Source: a virus
Lineage: Duplodnaviria > Heunggongvirae > Uroviricota > Caudoviricetes
Virus record (IMG/VR): IMGVR_UViG_2529292922_000012
Location: 1-12,765 of that record
DNA length: 12,765 nt
Reading direction: 5' to 3' (one strand)
Under the pieces are notes generated by a model. The model searched no databases, had not been told where the DNA came from, and saw nothing but the letters and a program-made list of their open reading frames with translations. Each line of letters starts with the position of its first letter. The stretch's first letter is position 1. The translations under genes were made by a program, and so were the position numbers. Shown one piece after another: positions 1 to 12,764 of this stretch.

Positions 1-274
1 GTCCCATTGACCGAATATTAAGATAATGACTTCCTGTTAACCACCCCTGTATGCTTAAGATGACCCTTCCCGCATCCACACCTCGCCCATCATCCCAACC
101 ACGGATAAACTCACCGCGTAAATCCGGTAATTTATTGGTGGGGTAGGCCTTTGCCAGTTTGGGATACATTTCAGAAGAAAATGCTGCACCATTGCATTTT
201 AGCCAGCCCGTTGGTGGTGTTTCTAAGGGCCACGGAACGGGCACACCAACAGGCAGTGCAGAGCCTTCCCCTAA
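1..274 (-). CDS. Tail-fibre C-terminal cassette, 5' part only (continues past the left window edge); no start codon of its own
   Basis: Minus-strand frame open from ~274 to position 1. Translation begins ...LGEGSALPVGVPVPWP...DDGRGVDAGR like the two downstream cassettes, then diverges. Antisense of track ORF 159..362. Confidence 0.6.
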
Positions 275-329
275 ACCAACGTTTTCATGCCGCCCTTACG
301 ATATAATTAAACGCAATGTTACGAGGACG
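69..329. repeat. Direct repeat copy A (~260 bp) spanning a cassette boundary
   Basis: Near-identical to 508..768 at a constant 439-bp offset, with scattered substitutions. Confidence 0.9.
266..291. other. Candidate invertase crossover site (cix/mix/hix-like), copy 1
   Basis: TTCCCCTAAACCAACGTTTTCATGCC. Shares the AAACC-AA-(C/G)GTTT core with recalled hixL (TTCTTGAAAACCAAGGTTTTTGATAA). Sits at the 5' end of a cassette. Confidence 0.5.
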
Positions 330-713
330 AATGGTTACATAATTAACCCCATCACCTCGTGAAGGCCCTGCAAATGAAAAACGGGAAAATCCTGGTTGGT
401 TAGAAACAATTTGGTCATAGTTATTGATTGAATGACCAGACCCAATGTCGAAATTACCTCCGTAATGAGAAAAACTTGTACCATCCTGCCCTGAAAGCAG
501 GGTACGTCCCGCATCAATCCCGCGCCCATCATCCCAGCCACGGATAAATTCACCGCGTAAATCCGGTAATTTATTGGTGGGGTAGGCTTTTGCCAGTTTG
601 GGATACATTTCAGAAGAAAATGCTGCACCATTGCATTTTAGCCAGCCCGTTGGTGGTGTTTCTAAGGGCCACGGAACGGGCACACCAACAGGCAGTGCAG
701 AGCCTTCCCCCAA
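285..713 (-). CDS. Tail-fibre C-terminal variable cassette (collar-like conserved N-part, variable tip, conserved ...RPRNIAFNYIVRAA end)
   Basis: Track ORF, 142 aa. N-terminal ~65 aa near-identical to cassette 724..1185. The 'M' is a TTG inside the crossover-like site; the frame stays open a few codons upstream, so it is probably a 3' gene segment fused to a constant 5' part after inversion. Confidence 0.75.
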   Translation of the reverse strand: MGEGSALPVGVPVPWPLETPPTGWLKCNGAAFSSEMYPKLAKAYPTNKLPDLRGEFIRGWDDGRGIDAGRTLLSGQDGTSFSHYGGNFDIGSGHSINNYDQIVSNQPGFSRFSFAGPSRGDGVNYVTIRPRNIAFNYIVRAA

Positions 714-768
714 ACCAACGTTTTTATGCCGCCCTTACGATATAATTAAAGGCAATATTACGAGGACG
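508..768. repeat. Direct repeat copy B (~260 bp)
   Basis: Aligns with 69..329 and, more divergently, with 982..1197. Confidence 0.9.
705..730. other. Candidate invertase crossover site, copy 2
   Basis: TTCCCCCAAACCAACGTTTTTATGCC. Imperfect dyad around a central AA, same orientation as copy 1. Confidence 0.55.
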
Positions 769-1185
769 GTTTTCATTAGCTGTTGGCACGACACGAGAGG
801 CGTCGAATCCAAGGTCATCGGTTTTGCCTATATCAGTTGTGTTATTCGGCATTCTCGCAGATCGTGTTCCTGCATCATAAAAAGCCCCTCTGATTGCATC
901 AAAAGACATGCCAATCCCGCCATCTGCGAACCCCTCAATATTTCTTATTGCATCCCCCTGTGAAGATAATAATTGTCGCCCGGCATCCACACCACGTCCG
1001 TCATCCCAGCCACGAATAAATTCACCGCGTAAATCCGGCAATTTATTAGTAGGGTAAGCCTTTGCCAGATTTGGGTACTTTTCAGAAGAAAATGCTGCTC
1101 CGTTACATTTCAGCCACCCCGTTGGCGGAGTGGCTGAGGGCCACGGAACAGGTACGCCAACGGGCAGTGCTGAGCCTTCCCCCAA
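724..1185 (-). CDS. Tail-fibre C-terminal variable cassette, proximal to the invertase gene
   Basis: Track ORF, 153 aa. Same conserved N-part (GEGSALPVGVPVPWP..TPPTGWLKCNGAAFSSE..AKAYPTNKLPDLRGEFIRGWDDGRG) and same C-terminal NIAFNYIVRAA as 285..713, with a different middle. Begins at TTG inside the crossover-like site. Confidence 0.75.
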   Translation of the reverse strand: MGEGSALPVGVPVPWPSATPPTGWLKCNGAAFSSEKYPNLAKAYPTNKLPDLRGEFIRGWDDGRGVDAGRQLLSSQGDAIRNIEGFADGGIGMSFDAIRGAFYDAGTRSARMPNNTTDIGKTDDLGFDASRVVPTANENRPRNIAFNYIVRAA

Positions 1186-1197
1186 ACCAACGTTTTA
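982..1197. repeat. Direct repeat copy C (~215 bp, more diverged; homology stops at the crossover-like site)
   Basis: Aligns with copies A and B from 'catcccagccacg' to 'caaaccaacgtttt', then diverges toward the invertase gene. Confidence 0.85.
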
Positions 1198-1203
1198 GTC
1201 TTA
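1178..1203. other. Candidate invertase crossover site, copy 3 (right boundary of the invertible region, ~55 bp upstream of the invertase start)
   Basis: TTCCCCCAAACCAACGTTTTAGTCTT. Repeat homology ends exactly here. Arrangement mirrors gixR-gin and cixR-cin. Confidence 0.55.
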
Positions 1204-1256
1204 ATCCCTACCTATACCAACGATGTATTTTTAACTAAACAAAGAGGTTGTTTTTC

Positions 1257-1829
1257 ATGCAAATTGGCTACATTCGTGTGTCAACAAATGACCAAAACAC
1301 AGATTTACAAAGAAATGCACTGAACTGCGCAGGATGTGAACTGATTTTTGAAGATAAAATAAGCGGAACAAAGTCAGCCAGACCAGGCTTGAAAAAGCTG
1401 CTCAGAACGTTATCAGAAGGAGATACGCTGGTTGTCTGGAAGCTGGATAGGCTTGGCAGAAGTATGAAACACCTTATCACGCTTATAGAGGAGTTGCGGG
1501 AAAAAGGTGTTAATTTCCGTAGTCTGACAGACAGTATTGACACATCAACACCCATGGGGCGTTTCTTTTTTCATGTCATGGGTGCTTTAGCAGAAATGGA
1601 ACGTGAATTAATTGTTGAGAGAACACTGGCCGGACTGGCAGCTGCACGCGAACAGGGACGCATTGGCGGACGTCGCCCGAAGTTGACAAAAGAACAACAT
1701 GAGCAAATAGCGAGGTTGATCGAAAATGGCTACAGCAGGAAACAGTTGGCAATTATTTACGATATCGGTGTATCGACGATTTATCGTTATCATCCTGTAG
1801 AGAAGCGCCAAACTCAATCTGAGCTGTAA
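1257..1829 (+). CDS. cin: Serine recombinase, Hin/Gin/Cin/Pin/Min-family DNA invertase
   Basis: MQIGYIRVSTNDQNTDLQ...VVWKLDRLGRSMKHL...SLTDSIDTSTPMGRFFFHVMGALAEMERELIVERT...GRIGGRRPKL plus C-terminal HTH: canonical invertase motifs with catalytic Ser in IGYIRVST. The track starts at an upstream TTG (1248); I chose the internal ATG, which gives the family-typical N-terminus. Symbol reflects P1-like context. Confidence 0.9.
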   Translation: MQIGYIRVSTNDQNTDLQRNALNCAGCELIFEDKISGTKSARPGLKKLLRTLSEGDTLVVWKLDRLGRSMKHLITLIEELREKGVNFRSLTDSIDTSTPMGRFFFHVMGALAEMERELIVERTLAGLAAAREQGRIGGRRPKLTKEQHEQIARLIENGYSRKQLAIIYDIGVSTIYRYHPVEKRQTQSEL

Positions 1830-1951
1830 TTCTAATGCCGCGTCGGTGTAATTTATCTTGATAGAATAGGTACATTTATCGCGCGGCACATCAATTCGAT
1901 GTATCTAGCGCCTGCTGACCGCTAATGAAAACTGTTCTCGAAATGTTGTCC

Positions 1952-1970
1952 CTAGTCCGAGACTAGGGTA
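1952..1970. repeat. Perfect 8-bp inverted repeat CCCTAGTC-cga-GACTAGGG in the intergenic region
   Basis: Seen directly. No U-tract on either side, so more likely a protein-binding dyad or RNA structure than an intrinsic terminator. Confidence 0.4.
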
Positions 1971-2264
1971 TCACCTCTGGAAAGCATACGCAGAACCTTT
2001 TTTAACCCAGGGTGCCCAGCTTTTTTGCTGCTCGCCTTATTCGCAAAAATTAGCTCACATCCTGCGCTTTCAAGTGCTTTTCACTGCATAGCTGTGTTTT
2101 GTTCATTTGTCTATATGCGTACATAGCCTATTAGCATATTTTCTGCCCACTATCGTTATTTATTGCAAGCTACAGGTTTTAATTAACAAAACCAGTGTGT
2201 GTGGAAATCACAAAGTGCATACCGTTCTCAAATGTTGTTCAACTTACTGTTGTATAGGTAAAAA

Positions 2265-6256: not shown

Positions 6257-9244
6257 ATGAGCTTAAGCGATCAGGTGGTAATGGCCACCAGCATAGAAAC
6301 GCTGATCGAGCTGCTAAAGAACCTGCCCGATTATGGGCGGGTTTCGTATGTGGTGACAGCGAAGGGAGACGAGGTAAAAACAGCGTTTGATATCGTCGAT
6401 GCCTCAGCTCTTTTGGTATCCAATACTCTGGATGGGAAAATTAATCCTGACTATCCCCAGGAACTTCAGCCGCGCGACCGGACCCGCGCATCCAGCCTTC
6501 TTCAGGTTAACCAGATATCCAAAGATTTGCGGCCTGCTCAGCTTACTGATTCCGGTTTATCCAGCCATGGTGCGCCGATAATTGGTGAGGACAATGCCGT
6601 TGAGTCTGGTAATGGACGGACCATGGGGATCATCAAAGCCTATCAGGACGGCAATGCGGATCGGTATCGTGAGTACCTGATTGATCATGCGACCGAATTC
6701 GGCATACGACCTGAAAAGGTTGAATCAATGACGGCTCCGGTACTGGTGCGCCGCCGGTTAACCAAGGTTGACCGCGTTCAGTTTGCCAAGGACTCAAATA
6801 TTTCTGATCTTCAGGAAATGGCAGCCAGTGAAAAGGCTTTTGTTGATGCCGACAGCATAACACCGGCGATGATGGCGCTTTTTAACCCGTCAGAAAGCGG
6901 AGATCTGCTTAGCCGCAGTAATGACGCGTTTATTCGCGGATTTATGACGCAAGTTGGTGCCACACAGGCGGCTGGCCTTGTAACGGAAGATGGGCGACCA
7001 ACGCGGCAACTTGTTGACCGTATACAAAACGCGATCTTTGCCAAGGCATATAAGGATGCGCGCCTGGTAAGGATGGTTGCAGAAGAACCTGATCCGGATA
7101 TGCGTAATGTTCTGACGGCGCTTAATGCGGCAGCCAATGATTTTGTCCAGATGCAGGCTTTATCAGGAGAAGCGCACAAGCAGGCTGTGACAACTATTGT
7201 TGATGGCATTGAGACAGCGGATAGCCTCGATAAAAAGGCGCTGGCGGCATTGAAAGATGCGGTAGACCTGGTAAGGCAATCGAAGGAGTCAGGCCAGCAT
7301 ATTACCGATGTTATTGCTCAGGGGGATATGTTCAGCGAAACGGCCCCGGAAGTGAAAGCACTCGCGTTGTTCATCGTCGCGAATAACCGTAGCGCGAAGC
7401 GTATGGCCACCGCCTTTAAGTTGATGGCTCAACGTATCAATGATGAGTTACAGCACCAGGGCCAGGCGCTGGGGGATATGTTTGGCGGTGGTGATGTGTC
7501 GTTACAGGATATCCTTCGCCAGGTGTCTCAGGAACTGGAAAACGAAGGCATGCAAGGGATATCCGGCGGTCTTTTCGAGTCCGTTTCCGGCGGTAGTTAC
7601 AATGGTGTTGCTCCATATACCAGTTTGCTATTACATCGGGCATCCGGCATCAAAGACATTATTCATCTGATCAGGCTGCTTTCCCGTACAGATCCCCAGG
7701 ATGAACAGCTTGTACAAGTGCTTGCGCATTTTGTTCGAATGCCTGTTGCCGACGTGAAAAAATGGTGCCGATTATTCGGTATCAGCAATTCGTTACTTCG
7801 CGGCTTGTTAAATCACGCATCCTCCCTTGGGCGCGATGGCTTTGACGAGATAGCGCAGGCGATAAAAAACGGAGATATGCCACCAGCTATTGACTGGTTT
7901 TCCATTCGCCCAACCAGGGTGAAAGCATTCCTTAGCGCGGCGCATTCGGCATCACCATTGGCAGAAATGGTTCAGAGGTTGTCGCTCATATTCACAGACC
8001 ATACCGCGTTGGGTGATCTGACTCTGGACGAGATGAAAGAAGCCTCCATTCAGTGGGCCGATCAACAAAATGAGGTTAACTCTGACTTCTTGCCAGCATT
8101 CAGGAAGGCCGTTAGTAAAGCGGATGATGCCCGTGGAATTCTGAGGGCATTTAAGGCATTGCAAAGTCAGGTTAATAAACATGTCGGTGATATCGATGGG
8201 GTAACGGCGGAAGGCAGGGATATCCTTAAAGAGCACGGCATAACGCCAGAGTTTATTGATGAGATCAGGACTGATATGCAGCGTGAGGTCGTATCGTCCC
8301 TGCAAATCGTAGCCAGAGCGTTGGCGGATGCTAATCCGAAGAGTGCGGCCATTGTTAACCGTGTTATTGGTGATATTGAAGCATCGGAGGGCATGGGGGC
8401 GCTGAAACTCTTCCTTTCGCGAGCGTTTAATCCTAACGGCAATATTCTCCCCGGCATTATTGGTGAGGCTAAAAAGTATGTCAGCGAAGAAGAACTTGAG
8501 CAGCTTGACCAACTACTTAAGCGATTCTCATATAACCCGCAGACACGCTGGCAAATGAATCAGCGAAGTATGGGTTCGGTCCACGAGAAAGTGTTATCTG
8601 CCATGAACAGTGCGATCGCAAACTCATCCGTATCTGAAGAAAAAGCTCTTGAGTGGGCCGACTCTTTTATCACGGAAGAAGTGGAAGAAGCCCGCGCTGG
8701 ACAGAATGGTGGGATAGACCTGCGCAAGGAACTTGCTGATATTTATCGCCTGACCGGCGGGAAAATATCGACATTATCAAAGGTAGTTCACCACCAGGGA
8801 AGGGCATATGCAAATCTTAATGGTGTTGTTGCTGTCAATTTGAACGATGAAAATGCAAGTGCACTGTGGCACGAGCTGGGTCATCATCTTGAGTACAGTA
8901 ACCCTGGTTTGTTAGAGAAAGCCCGGTCATTCCTGAAGGCCAATGTTGAAGGGGATAAGCCATCTTTCGTCAATATCGGTGGGCGTGGCAAGCCTGAATG
9001 GTGCTTCAGATCTCGATTGAGTAATATTTATATGGCGAAGGTATACCCGCCAGCCTCAGTAAGTAACACCGGGAAAATTCGGCAGAAATCACCGACTATT
9101 TCCAAAACGTCAGCAACGGAAGTATTCTCTATGGCTCTTCAGTTGTATCATGACAAAGAGGCCGCTGCCGCATCACTGATGAATGGTGACGGATTGCTGG
9201 AACTGTTATTAGGTGTGGCAAAGGAGCTAAATAATGCAGATTAA
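6257..9244 (+). CDS. ddrB: DdrB-like large protein: ParB/Srx-like N-terminal signature plus C-terminal HExxH (zincin-like) motif
   Basis: 995 aa. ELQPRDR...GAPIIGEDNAVESGNGRTMGI resembles ParB boxes (QPR / GxxR). HELGHH at aa 872-877 (nt 8870-8887). Long helical middle. Confidence 0.6.
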   Translation: MSLSDQVVMATSIETLIELLKNLPDYGRVSYVVTAKGDEVKTAFDIVDASALLVSNTLDGKINPDYPQELQPRDRTRASSLLQVNQISKDLRPAQLTDSGLSSHGAPIIGEDNAVESGNGRTMGIIKAYQDGNADRYREYLIDHATEFGIRPEKVESMTAPVLVRRRLTKVDRVQFAKDSNISDLQEMAASEKAFVDADSITPAMMALFNPSESGDLLSRSNDAFIRGFMTQVGATQAAGLVTEDGRPTRQLVDRIQNAIFAKAYKDARLVRMVAEEPDPDMRNVLTALNAAANDFVQMQALSGEAHKQAVTTIVDGIETADSLDKKALAALKDAVDLVRQSKESGQHITDVIAQGDMFSETAPEVKALALFIVANNRSAKRMATAFKLMAQRINDELQHQGQALGDMFGGGDVSLQDILRQVSQELENEGMQGISGGLFESVSGGSYNGVAPYTSLLLHRASGIKDIIHLIRLLSRTDPQDEQLVQVLAHFVRMPVADVKKWCRLFGISNSLLRGLLNHASSLGRDGFDEIAQAIKNGDMPPAIDWFSIRPTRVKAFLSAAHSASPLAEMVQRLSLIFTDHTALGDLTLDEMKEASIQWADQQNEVNSDFLPAFRKAVSKADDARGILRAFKALQSQVNKHVGDIDGVTAEGRDILKEHGITPEFIDEIRTDMQREVVSSLQIVARALADANPKSAAIVNRVIGDIEASEGMGALKLFLSRAFNPNGNILPGIIGEAKKYVSEEELEQLDQLLKRFSYNPQTRWQMNQRSMGSVHEKVLSAMNSAIANSSVSEEKALEWADSFITEEVEEARAGQNGGIDLRKELADIYRLTGGKISTLSKVVHHQGRAYANLNGVVAVNLNDENASALWHELGHHLEYSNPGLLEKARSFLKANVEGDKPSFVNIGGRGKPEWCFRSRLSNIYMAKVYPPASVSNTGKIRQKSPTISKTSATEVFSMALQLYHDKEAAAASLMNGDGLLELLLGVAKELNNAD

Positions 9245-9545
9245 AATCGCAGCGCCATTAGGCGGAGATGCCATTATCGAATTTGATGATAATGAAGAAG
9301 TTTCCGGGCGTTTAAGCATTATCTCCGGTGACATTACCGAGGACATGATCGCTGAAGCCATAGCTGGGGCAAATCCCAATAGCTATATGGGATTCGTTAA
9401 CACCCTTGATGCTCCCGCAAGTGATGTTCTCCGAACGCTGCATCTTTACGCTGGCTGGTTTGTTGATTGGCCAGCAGTAGATGGTGGCGATGAGGACGAC
9501 GACGACGATGATTTTGGTGATCATGTAGACCAGATCGTATATTGA
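9234..9545 (+). CDS. Small protein with highly acidic C-terminus, translationally coupled to ddrB
   Basis: ATG overlaps the ddrB 3' end. SD AAGGAG 7 nt upstream. 103 aa ending DGGDEDDDDDDFGDHVDQIVY. Last gene before the terminator. Confidence 0.55.
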   Translation: MQIKIAAPLGGDAIIEFDDNEEVSGRLSIISGDITEDMIAEAIAGANPNSYMGFVNTLDAPASDVLRTLHLYAGWFVDWPAVDGGDEDDDDDDFGDHVDQIVY

Positions 9546-9574
9546 AGAAATCCCGCCAATTGGCGGGATTTTTA
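9546..9574. terminator. Bidirectional rho-independent terminator between convergent genes
   Basis: AAATCCCGCC-aatt-GGCGGGATTT 10-bp GC-rich stem followed by a T-run on the + strand and ATTTCTTC on the - strand. Lies exactly between the stops at 9545 and 9577. Confidence 0.7.
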
Positions 9575-9576
9575 CC

Positions 9577-10663
9577 TCACGAGAAACTCTTTTCTGATGT
9601 CAGCCAACAGTGCTCGTGCATATCTCTTGGTGGTTTTTCGACAAATGCCTCTTCAGCCACATCCTGCCAGGGGATTTGTTTAGCCCATTCAGTTATAGCG
9701 TTATGGTTTGCCGAGAATAACGGTATTGTATAGGCCTTCAGCCAGTCTAATGTGCTGGAGTTGTGTTTTTGAGCGTGATGTTTCGCATGGTGTTTGGCGA
9801 TCACGATCGTAGGCACTACCCATTTACTACCGTCAGTCATTGTGAAGTGCATATTACGGGGAACAGATGACTTTTCCATCAACTCCCGAATCCCGGGGAA
9901 TTTCCCCAAGATCAATCGGCGATATTCATCGCTATTGCGTCCACCAAACTCTTTGGCTTTGAATTCAAGATATGCTTCAGAAACGAGAGGTGAATCCTCT
10001 GTGTTTAGAGTTATCGCCGTGAAAAAACCAGCAGGATTGTTTTTACTATGGGCCAACCGGTGATGCGAATCATAAAAGTACCCTTTCTCGCGTTCCGATG
10101 GTTTCGACAGCAACAGCAGGCGCGAGTCATAATTGGTTAAATTGCCAGTTATCACTGCATGAGCGCGATCGCTGATTTCCGCCGAGTTAATAACGATGAA
10201 AAGATCGTGCGGTCCAGTAAAACCAGCCAGAGACTCTTCGTTATTCAGACAATAGGTTATATAGACGCATCCCCATGTTTCACTGATATGCACCAACCCT
10301 TTGTCAGGGTGTATTCTGAAATAATTGCCAAGAAAAGGGTGTTTTTGGGTAACTCGCTCCCAATAACGGAACATATAGTCAATTATTGTTTTTCGACTAT
10401 CGTTAATCGCAGGAGAAACAACCACTGTACGGGAACACGAATACAGTATTGTTTGCAGGATGCTAATCACTGCCACAATAGAGGTTTCCCCAATACCATG
10501 TGGTGTGGTGGCAGTGACTTTGGCTCCGGTGTTCTTTATCGCGTTAATAATTTTTGCTTGATGAGGTGTTAACTCAATATCAAGCAACTCTTTTGCTGCC
10601 AGTTCCCAATTGTCTTTATACCGTTCTATCAGTGCTAACCAGGCAGATTCATTCTGTATACGA

Positions 10664-10671
<8 letters not shown>
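9577..10671 (-). CDS. Terminase-large-subunit-like P-loop ATPase-domain protein with degenerate Walker A/B; no nuclease domain apparent
   Basis: Track ORF, 364 aa, GTG start with SD GAGGTGG. Motif order PHQ...TTPHGIGETS...DLFIVINSAE...LLLLSKPSE resembles the adenine-Q / Walker A / Walker B / C-motif layout of terminase ATPases as I recall it. His-rich patch AKHHAKHHAQKH. Confidence 0.5.

Positions 10672-12764
<2,093 letters not shown>

What the first reader, a model, noticed from the sequence alone, without database searches (positions are those of the whole stretch)
266..1203. Three crossover-like 26-bp sites, all in the same orientation
The sites at 266-291, 705-730 and 1178-1203 share TTCCCC(C/T)AAACCAACGTTTT with a central AA and resemble hix/gix/cix sites. 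All three are direct repeats in this window. Serine invertases normally recombine only inverted sites, so in this isomer all three cassettes are silent with respect to any expressed constant part. The ~260-bp direct repeats around them are also substrates for RecA-mediated deletion, which would remove cassettes.
Basis: partly seen in the sequence, partly recalled or inferred. Interest (0 to 1): 0.55.

Follow-up and report, generated by a model that had tools for sequence, protein, structure and literature searches.

The report
Known Min/mix tail-fibre inversion sites
The three repeated 26-bp sites are the already described "mix" crossover sites of the Min tail-fibre switching system of p15B-type P1-like phage-plasmids, and they all point the same way only because the window ends before their inverted partners.

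Summary
TTCCCCYAAACCAACGTTTT occurs three times, all on the + strand, at 266, 705 and 1177 (the third site is 1177-1202, not 1178-1203), with none expected by chance.

The sites are the published mix sites of the Min multiple-inversion system of plasmid p15B. Site C is 26/26 identical to one mix site. Sites A and B are 25/26 identical to three others.

Each site opens a silent, minus-strand tail-fibre C-terminal cassette with a Collar domain. Next to them lies an intact Min-type serine invertase (1257-1829) carrying a Cin-like enhancer.

I mapped sites in 14 complete relatives. Each has 5-9 sites in both orientations. The invertase-proximal group (2-7 sites) always looks like this window, and the constant tail-fibre gene ends in an inverted site.

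The window starts inside the cassette linked to the tail-fibre assembly gene. The nearest inverted partner should therefore lie about 1.3 kb beyond its left edge.

Two same-length Klebsiella plasmids are exact isomers. Their exchange points map to the 7 bp AAACCAA around the AA core.

The "direct only" picture is a window-edge effect. This system is already known, so interest is low.

The parts
266..291 (+). mix-type crossover site A: TTCCCCTAAACC AA CGTTTTCATGCC. It opens cassette A, and its outer half holds the TGA stop of cassette B.
   Evidence: Exact pattern match. It is 25/26 identical to the published p15B sites mixMr''N', mixO''P' and mixP''Q'. The same site, with the rare C at position 21, is found in inverted orientation with cassette B in L002.
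705..730 (+). mix-type crossover site B: TTCCCCCAAACC AA CGTTTTTATGCC. It opens cassette B, and its outer half holds the TAA stop of cassette C.
   Evidence: 25/26 identical to three published mix sites. It combines a left half and a right half that both occur in p15B.
1177..1202 (+). mix-type crossover site C: TTCCCCCAAACC AA CGTTTTAGTCTT. It is the fixed right boundary of the invertible region, 80 nt upstream of the invertase ATG.
   Evidence: 26/26 identical to the published mixMl''L'. A site lies at the same position (80 nt before the ATG) in all 14 relatives, and 13 of them have the same outer half.
1..291 (-). Silent tail-fibre C-terminal cassette A, cut by the window edge. This is the cassette type that is followed by the tail-fibre assembly gene in relatives.
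   Evidence: Collar domain PF07484, E 2e-15. Its variable part (1-90) is 94-98% identical to one cassette in each of 13 relatives (no hit in the P2-like L011), and that cassette abuts the assembly gene wherever the gene is called (L009 has no such call).
285..730 (-). Silent tail-fibre C-terminal cassette B. It reads NVGLGEGSALPVG...RPRNIAFNYIVRAA*, with its stop at 285-287.
   Evidence: Collar domain, E 7e-15; translation. The core-to-core segment 279-717 is found in L002 at 439/439 nt and 99.8% identity in the opposite orientation.
724..1202 (-). Silent tail-fibre C-terminal cassette C, with its stop at 724-726 and in-frame stops immediately upstream of its site.
   Evidence: Collar domain, E 3e-15; translation. 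The identical 153-aa product occurs at different positions and in both orientations in other records, including directly after the constant tail-fibre gene in L010.
1257..1829 (+). Min-type serine DNA invertase, 190 aa, with the putative catalytic Ser9 in YIRVST. It reads away from the invertible region.
   Evidence: Resolvase PF00239, E 2e-51, plus HTH_7, E 3e-15. It is 100% identical to the invertase of L002 and L003 and 74% identical to P1 Cin. The best solved structures are 3uj3 and 4m6f, entries deposited as 'DNA-invertase' that I take from memory to be phage Mu Gin, E about 1e-92.
1275..1346 (.). Probable recombinational (Fis-dependent) enhancer inside the 5' part of the invertase gene.
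   Evidence: 81% identical to the enhancer annotated in P1 cin. Fis-consensus-like 15-mers at gene nt 23 and 71, 48 bp apart, occupy the same positions as in P1 cin. Function is inferred, not tested.
1958..2226 (-). Relic of a P1-type cin gene: promoter region plus the first ~177-180 nt (BLAST homology to P1 ends at window 1961), with a TAG where the catalytic serine codon should be. It includes a second enhancer-like stretch.
   Evidence: 89.5% identical to P1 31570-31836 on the minus strand; alignment. The P1 record notes the same relic in p15B at nt 7147-7408.

Best explanation
The window holds the invertase-proximal half of a p15B-type Min multiple-inversion system from a P1-like (IncY-type) phage-plasmid. 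The three 26-bp sites are mix crossover sites. Each marks the 5' end, on the minus strand, of a promoterless and start-less cassette of about 145 codons that encodes an alternative receptor-binding C-terminus of the S tail fibre. The cassettes are packed so tightly that each one's stop codon lies in the outer half of the next site. The adjacent Min invertase, helped by host Fis bound to the enhancer inside its own gene, pairs one of these sites with an oppositely oriented mix site to the left of the window. Ultimately that partner is the site at the end of the constant part of gene S. The enzyme cuts at the central AA, rotates and rejoins. This inverts the intervening DNA and fuses a different cassette in frame to the constant part (...LDYL|GLGEGSALPVG...). 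Repeated overlapping inversions shuffle cassette order and orientation, so a lysogen population makes virions with different host specificities. Shown here: site identity, cassette and invertase identity, the architecture in relatives, and exchange at the core in natural isomers. Inferred: Fis and enhancer dependence, the effect on host range, and the existence of the inverted partners in this window's own source molecule.
For: 1) Sites A, B and C are 25/26, 25/26 and 26/26 identical to published p15B mix sites (Table 3 of PMC3241671; comparison).
2) The invertase has Resolvase and HTH_7 domains. It is 100% identical to that of pMCR_SCKP-LL83 (L002), whose invertible region is reported as 99% identical over 92% coverage to the p15B min region (PMC5786510). 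It is 74% identical to Cin, and its best solved-structure hits are 3uj3/4m6f, which I take to be Gin, at E about 1e-92.
3) The genomic context is P1-like: lydC, lydA, lydB, darA, ddrA and ddrB lie downstream.
4) The 14 complete relatives with mapped sites each carry 5-9 sites. The distal site at the constant tail-fibre gene is always inverted, with outer half GGTAATYAAGAA in the 13 P1-like loci. The proximal site is always 80 nt before the invertase ATG, and 2-7 direct sites lie next to the invertase.
5) L006 and L007 are two 95,815-bp K. pneumoniae plasmids from the same hospital. Cut at the site cores, all eight rearranged or downstream segments are 100% identical but permuted and inverted. 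The three new junctions are exact reciprocal reassortments of the left and right halves of parental sites, which confines exchange to AAACCAA.
6) Window segment B occurs core-to-core in inverted orientation in L002, and segment C does so in L006. The identical cassette C protein sits at many positions and in both orientations.
7) In relatives the expressed S gene reads through the junction site into a cassette in frame.
8) The enhancer stretch is conserved, with Fis-like motifs spaced 48 bp apart.
Against: No inverted site and no constant tail-fibre part is present within the 12.7-kb window, so a complete system in this particular molecule is inferred from relatives. No PLSDB plasmid has the A-B-C block directly abutting the invertase as the window does. 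The closest cases are L016, with the same tfa-A-B-C order but two more cassettes before the invertase, and L008, with the same C and B next to the invertase. Dyad symmetry within each site is weak, at 5/12, although this is equally true of the published mix sites. Inversion activity, Fis dependence and host-range effects were not and cannot be tested here. The p15B sequence itself (X62121) was not available for direct alignment.
Confidence: 0.95

Rival explanations
1. Frozen archive. In this particular molecule the left half of the system (inverted sites and/or the junction with the constant tail-fibre part) has been lost. Only direct repeats remain, the invertase cannot act on them, and the cassettes are permanently silent.
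For: Within the window all three sites are direct, and no junction half-site is found. P1-like plasmids with degraded tail-fibre or invertase modules do exist (PMC6906374). An IS21-family element sits at the other end of the window, so this molecule has been hit by mobile DNA.
Against: The window simply ends inside cassette A. The invertase is intact and identical to that of complete systems. All three sites are intact. All 14 complete relatives keep inverted partners. Many assemblies break in this repeat region: the identical cassette is indexed in 217 of 521 blocks whose longest carrying contig is under 5 kb.
Confidence: 0.03
2. The rearrangements among these cassettes are driven by RecA-dependent homologous recombination between the ~200-bp conserved cassette heads. 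The 26-bp motif is then just conserved coding sequence rather than a recombination site.
For: About 200 bp at 76-96% identity flanks each site on the cassette side, which is long enough for RecA. Site number varies among relatives, 5-9, as unequal homologous exchange would produce.
Against: In the L006/L007 isomers every exchange lies between half-site position 7 and position 15, a 7-bp interval containing the AA core. Half-site polymorphisms at positions 4 and 7 stay with their cassette. On the outer side the partners share no homology (GGTAAT... versus CGTTTT...). The motif equals experimentally defined mix sites, and a dedicated invertase lies 80 nt away.
Confidence: 0.01
3. The cassettes are independent small 'phage tail protein' genes, as automatic annotation calls them, and are expressed on their own from the TTG at the site. 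Orientation relative to a constant part would then be irrelevant.
For: RefSeq annotates equivalent ORFs of 136-167 aa as separate CDSs. The ORF finder lists 285-713 and 724-1185 with TTG starts.
Against: The TTG is formed by the crossover core plus one base. It is preceded by AAGACTAAAACG or GGCATAAAAACG, in which I see no Shine-Dalgarno-like sequence. In relatives the same reading frame continues uninterrupted from the constant part of S through the junction site. The cassettes lie antisense and head-to-tail, and I looked for no promoter.
Confidence: 0.01

Closest known systems
Min multiple DNA inversion system of plasmid p15B (E. coli 15T-): min invertase plus six mix sites (Sandmeier, Iida, Arber and co-workers 1990-1992; sites as tabulated in PMC3241671)
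   Same: The site sequences match at 0-1 mismatch of 26. The right-boundary site has the same outer half (CGTTTTAGTCTT). In relatives the junction site at the constant tail-fibre part is the same (GGTAATCAAGAA). The window has a Min-type invertase reading away from the segment, short 3' gene cassettes of the S tail-fibre gene, and a cin 5' relic downstream of the invertase, as noted for p15B in the P1 record.
   Different: Only the invertase-proximal part is in the window. Close relatives carry up to 9 sites against the 6 tabulated for p15B. Site A has a single T-to-C change that turns the preceding cassette's TAA stop into TGA. The particular cassette order, A-B-C directly next to the invertase, was not seen in the plasmids and genomes I examined.
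Cin/cix C-segment inversion of bacteriophage P1
   Same: The phage backbone and the position in the tail-fibre operon are the same. Cin is 74% identical to the window's invertase. Both use 26-bp sites with an AA core, sharing TTCYCYYAAACC AA. Both have an enhancer in the 5' part of the invertase gene and switch the C-terminus of protein S.
   Different: P1 has two sites and two large alternative segments, each with its own U gene. Here there are many small cassettes and, in relatives, a single assembly gene. P1 cin reads toward the segment and cixL overlaps its 3' end, whereas here the invertase reads away from the segment. The sites differ from cix at 9-11 of 26 positions.
R64-type shufflon (Rci tyrosine recombinase, sfx sites, pilV C-terminal cassettes)
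   Same: The logic is the same: several overlapping invertible segments shuffle alternative C-terminal cassettes onto one constant gene part, with a strong preference for inversion over deletion (general statement in PMC11850598).
   Different: The recombinase class differs: serine invertase here, tyrosine recombinase there. The sites are unrelated, the target is pilus adhesin rather than phage tail fibre, and the R64 system needs no Fis or enhancer.

Membership tests
Din family of serine DNA invertase systems (Hin, Gin, Cin, Pin, Min) | A small serine recombinase with an N-terminal catalytic domain carrying the active-site serine near residue 9-10 and a C-terminal helix-turn-helix | tested here: met
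   PF00239, E 2e-51, over residues 3-135. PF02796, E 3e-15, over residues 138-180. Ser9 lies in YIRVST and is conserved with Cin. The best solved-structure hits are 3uj3/4m6f ('DNA-invertase'; I take them to be Gin), E about 1e-92.
Din family of serine DNA invertase systems (Hin, Gin, Cin, Pin, Min) | [quoted passage not shown] | tested here: met
   All three sites fit TTCCCCYAAACC AA CGTTTT..., the consensus given in PMC3241671. The outermost right-half positions (---GAA) are not kept, and dyad symmetry is only 5/12, exactly as in the published mix sites.
Din family of serine DNA invertase systems (Hin, Gin, Cin, Pin, Min) | A recombinational enhancer with two Fis sites about 48 bp apart, in cis, within the 5' part of the invertase gene | tested here: inconclusive
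   Window 1275-1346 is 81% identical to the enhancer annotated in P1 cin. Fis-consensus-like 15-mers lie at gene nt 23 and 71 in both. This is sequence conservation only. The stretch is also coding sequence, and Fis binding cannot be tested here.
Din family of serine DNA invertase systems (Hin, Gin, Cin, Pin, Min) | Crossover sites in inverted orientation bounding the invertible DNA | tested here: inconclusive
   No inverted site exists in the window, but the window starts inside the invertible region. All 14 complete relatives have inverted sites to the left. The partner of site A is predicted about 1.3 kb beyond the window edge.
Din family of serine DNA invertase systems (Hin, Gin, Cin, Pin, Min) | Conservative reciprocal exchange at the core dinucleotide | tested here: met
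   This was shown in relatives, not in the window's own molecule. The L006/L007 isomers have 100% identical rearranged segments and reciprocal half-site reassortment confined to AAACCAA. Window segments B and C are found core-to-core inverted in L002 and L006.
Min system of p15B specifically | mix site sequences | tested here: met
   0, 1 and 1 mismatches of 26 to the published mix sites.
Min system of p15B specifically | The Min invertase rather than Cin, Pin or Gin | tested here: inconclusive
Indirect support: the invertase is 100% identical to that of pMCR_SCKP-LL83, whose region is reported as 99% identical to p15B min. It is only 74% identical to Cin. Its orientation is reversed relative to P1 cin, as reported for a 98.5% Min-identical gene in pJIE250-3.
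Min system of p15B specifically | More than two sites, with short 3' gene cassettes of the S tail-fibre gene between them | tested here: met
   The window has three sites and three Collar-domain cassettes of 142-153 codons, each with its stop codon inside the next site.
R64-type shufflon | Rci tyrosine recombinase and sfx repeats | tested here: not met
   The recombinase is a serine recombinase, and the sites are Din-type 26-mers. It works like a shufflon but is not a member of that family.

The most novel reading that the evidence does not exclude
The Min invertase may occasionally act on the directly repeated mix sites and excise whole cassettes as small circles. These could be lost or re-inserted at another mix site, in the same element or in a co-resident phage. 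That would explain three things: site number ranges from 5 to 9 among close relatives, the published p15B has only 6, and the identical cassette plus invertase also sits in a P2-like chromosomal prophage (L011). It would be an integron-like cassette traffic layered on an inversion switch. My data show unit-wise variation and sharing, but they do not distinguish this from ordinary homologous recombination.
Probability: 0.05. Interest if true: 0.5.

Novelty: already known. Interest (0 to 1): 0.08.

Why it matters
It matters little as a discovery, since the Min/mix system has been characterised since about 1990 and these sites are essentially identical to the published ones. Three practical points follow. 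First, automatic annotation of such plasmids calls the silent cassettes free-standing 'phage tail protein' genes and the invertase a generic recombinase. Second, short-read assemblies break in this array, so single contigs give a misleading 'all direct repeats' picture. Third, the widespread P1-like phage-plasmids, several of which carry mcr-1 or ESBL genes, hold up to eight alternative receptor-binding tips. That is relevant to predicting their host range.

Tried and rejected
I tried to read the primary p15B papers (PMC53420, PMC329034) and the P1 genome paper (PMC523184). None is held, so the published mix sites were taken from Table 3 of PMC3241671.

My first Pfam call used a wrong frame and failed. 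It was repeated with the ATG at 1257.

A whole-26-mer comparison with hix, gix, cix, pix, bix and nix sites alone is not statistically convincing: 7 mismatches, against a minimum of 7-9 in shuffles. It is the mix sites and the natural isomers that settle the matter.

I searched the window for the junction half-site of the constant tail-fibre part and for any inverted site, and found none.

I looked for a complete record with the window's exact configuration in plasmids and in E. coli genomes. None has A-B-C directly next to the invertase. L016 has the tfa-A-B-C block with two further cassettes.

I considered and rejected three alternatives: an R64-type shufflon (wrong recombinase class), RecA-driven inversion (exchange interval of only 7 bp) and independent cassette genes (no ribosome-binding site that I could see, and in-frame fusions in relatives).

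I did not use structure prediction, Rfam or the large protein searches, because they could not change the verdict.
Full report
**Observation.** The 20-mer TTCCCCYAAACCAACGTTTT occurs exactly three times, at 266-285, 705-724 and 1177-1196. All three copies are on the + strand. No other match with up to three mismatches exists on either strand, and 200 dinucleotide-preserving shuffles gave none.

The sites lie in a three-copy direct repeat of 262 nt at 68-329, 507-768 and 979-1240. Copies A and B are 96% alike. Copy C shares only the part up to the end of its site and then diverges.

**What the surrounding DNA encodes.** On the minus strand each site opens a reading frame...NVGLGEGSALPVGVPVPWP...RPRNIAFNYIVRAA*. 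The three frames (<1-291, 285-730 and 724-1202) each carry a phage tail Collar domain, PF07484, with E about 1e-15.
- The roughly 200 conserved nucleotides on one side of each site encode that domain.
- The roughly 38 conserved nucleotides on the other side encode the shared C-terminal end of the preceding cassette.
- The stop codon of each cassette (TGA at 285-287, TAA at 724-726) lies inside the outer half of the next site.
- None of the cassettes can be translated as it stands. Stops lie in frame just upstream of cassette C, B is in another frame than C, and the only 'start' is a TTG made of the crossover core plus one base, preceded by a sequence in which I see no ribosome-binding site.

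Eighty nucleotides to the right of site C starts a 190-aa serine recombinase (1257-1829). It has Resolvase and HTH_7 domains. It is 74% identical to P1 Cin, and its best solved-structure hits are 3uj3 and 4m6f ('DNA-invertase', which I take to be phage Mu Gin), with E about 1e-92.

Downstream lie lydC, lydA, lydB, a DarA_N protein, darA, ddrA and ddrB. DNA searches place the window in P1-like (Punavirus, IncY-type) phage-plasmids of E. coli, Klebsiella and Salmonella.

**Identity of the sites.** Table 3 of PMC3241671 lists the crossover sites of the Din family, including the six mix sites of the Min system of plasmid p15B.
- Site C is identical at 26/26 positions to mixMl''L' (TTCCCCCAAACC AA CGTTTTAGTCTT).
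- Sites A and B differ at one position each from mixMr''N', mixO''P' and mixP''Q'.
- Against the non-mix sites the best score is 7 mismatches, to pix. P1's own cixL and cixR, read from the annotated P1 record, differ at 9-11 positions.
- Seven mismatches is only at the edge of what shuffled windows give, 7-9. Resemblance to hix, gix or cix alone would therefore have been weak evidence.

The invertase is 100% identical to that of pMCR_SCKP-LL83 (L002). The 5-kb invertible region of that plasmid is reported as 99% identical over 92% coverage to the min region of p15B (PMC5786510). The invertase gene also reads away from the invertible DNA, the reverse of P1 cin. This matches what was reported for a gene 98.5% identical to p15B Min (PMC6906374).

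**Why all three sites point the same way.** I mapped the site in 14 complete relatives (L001-L004 and L006-L015).
- Each has 5-9 sites.
- The site next to the invertase is always 80 nt before the ATG, in the window's orientation, and 13 of the 14 have the outer half CGTTTTAGTCTT.
- Between 2 and 7 sites adjacent to the invertase are direct repeats of each other.
- Further left, beyond a central segment of about 1581 bp that carries the single tail-fibre assembly gene, the sites are inverted.
- The last site is the junction with the constant part of the S tail-fibre gene. Its outer half is GGTAATYAAGAA in the 13 P1-like loci, which equals the published mixQ''R'.

The variable part of the window's cassette A (1-90) matches one cassette in each of 13 relatives. 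That cassette abuts the assembly gene wherever the gene is called. The window therefore starts inside the central segment, and the inverted partner of site A is expected about 1.3 kb beyond the left edge.

L016 is a complete plasmid with the same tfa-A-B-C block. It shows exactly that left-hand context.

The window also ends right after an IS21-family element. The identical cassette C is indexed in many blocks whose longest carrying contig is under 5 kb. Together these suggest the window is an assembly contig broken at repeats.

**Evidence that recombination happens at these sites.** L006 and L007 are plasmids of identical length (95,815 bp) from K. pneumoniae isolates of the same hospital. 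I cut both at the centre of every site.
- All eight rearranged or downstream segments are 100% identical between the two. The upstream flank differs at four positions.
- Five of the segments are permuted or inverted. Two successive inversions account for the difference.
- The three novel junctions are exact reciprocal combinations of the left half of one parental site with the right half of another.
- Polymorphisms at half-site positions 4 and 7 stay with the cassette, and the outer halves differ from position 15 onward. Exchange is therefore confined to AAACCAA, which contains the AA core.

That interval is too short for RecA, and the partners have no homology on the outer side.

For the window itself, segment B (279-717) occurs core-to-core (439/439 nt, 99.8%) in the opposite orientation in L002. 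Segment C does the same in L006. The rare C at position 21 of site A is found with cassette B in L002 as well.

The identical 153-aa cassette C protein is found first, second or fourth from the invertase. It is also found on the S-gene side, including directly after S. In relatives the S reading frame runs through the junction site into a cassette...LDYL|GLGEGSALPVG....

**Mechanism.** By homology with Hin, Gin and Cin (established knowledge of the family), invertase dimers bind two inverted sites. Fis bound to the enhancer assembles the invertasome on supercoiled DNA. The serine cleaves at the 2-bp core, the subunits rotate and the ends are rejoined.

The enhancer annotated in P1 cin is 81% conserved at the same place in the window's invertase gene (1275-1346). 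Fis-consensus-like 15-mers lie 48 bp apart at the same gene positions. This step is inferred.

The outcome is that any of the silent cassettes in the window can be fused to the constant part of S by one inversion with the junction site. Successive overlapping inversions shuffle the stack.

Preference for inverted sites is a known property of these systems (general statement in PMC11850598). So 'silent in this isomer' is right, but 'no partner' is not.

Deletion between the direct repeats is plausible, and relatives differ by whole units: 5-9 sites, and region lengths differing by one cassette. The data cannot say whether RecA, the invertase or slippage is responsible.

**Verdict.** This is the already described Min/mix system in one of its many isomers, seen through a window that cuts it in half. 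Novelty: already known. Interest: low.

Noticed in passing
window 1958-2226 (minus strand): This is a relic of a P1-type cin gene: the cin promoter region plus the first ~177-180 nt (BLAST homology to P1 ends at window 1961), 89.5% identical to P1. A TAG stands where the catalytic serine codon should be, and a second copy of the enhancer-like stretch is 86% identical to the P1 enhancer. The P1 record notes the same relic in p15B. The element therefore once had, or acquired part of, a Cin-type gene in the opposite orientation to the present Min-type gene.
   Followed up: partly
window 1913-1967: Just downstream of the invertase stop lies a 36-nt stretch (1913-1948) that is an inverted copy, 81% complementary, of the 3' end of cassette C (753-788, encoding ...TANENRPRNI...). 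It is followed by a perfect 8-bp hairpin, CCCTAGTC-CGA-GACTAGGG (about 1949-1967), at the junction with the cin relic. It looks like a scar of an old rearrangement that placed a cassette tail beyond the invertase. No mix site is left there.
   Followed up: no
window 10811-12764: This is an IS21-family insertion sequence with 28-nt terminal inverted repeats (10811-10838 and 12737-12764), istA (340 aa, rve plus HTH) and istB (260 aa, IstB_IS21, E 8e-112). Similarity to the related phage-plasmids stops at 10810. The window ends one base after the element, which suggests a contig broken at repeats.
   Followed up: partly
L011 (GCA_009794925.1, WTOK01000015.1), locus 6975-10534: The same invertase length class and the identical 153-aa cassette C occur in a chromosomal P2-like prophage, with Baseplate_J, gpW, gpV, gpD, tail X and gpU genes. 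It has six mix-type sites. The junction site with its own tail-fibre gene has a hix/gix-like outer half (GGTTTTTGACAA). Min-type cassette arrays are therefore shared between unrelated myovirus backbones.
   Followed up: no
L012 (GCA_019297465.1, NBJD01000003.1), locus about 11700-16400: The central segment of the invertible region, which carries the assembly gene, also holds an mcr-1-type insertion: an EptA/sulfatase gene and a PAP2 gene flanked by two IS30-family transposase genes. This stretches the distance between the two inverted sites from 1581 to 6332 bp. If the invertase is active, the resistance gene itself is on invertible DNA.
   Followed up: no
L002, L003, L008 and L013: Several relatives carry nine mix-type sites (eight cassettes), against the six sites tabulated for p15B. 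One E. coli genome shows up to 19 separate BLAST matches ('places') to window 1-1300, the highest per genome. The array size is clearly variable in nature.
   Followed up: partly
window 9577-10671 (minus strand): A 364-aa ORF lies between hxr and the IS element and has no Pfam hit. It is present in some relatives (L014, L015), while others have a porin gene at this position (L002, L008).
   Followed up: no
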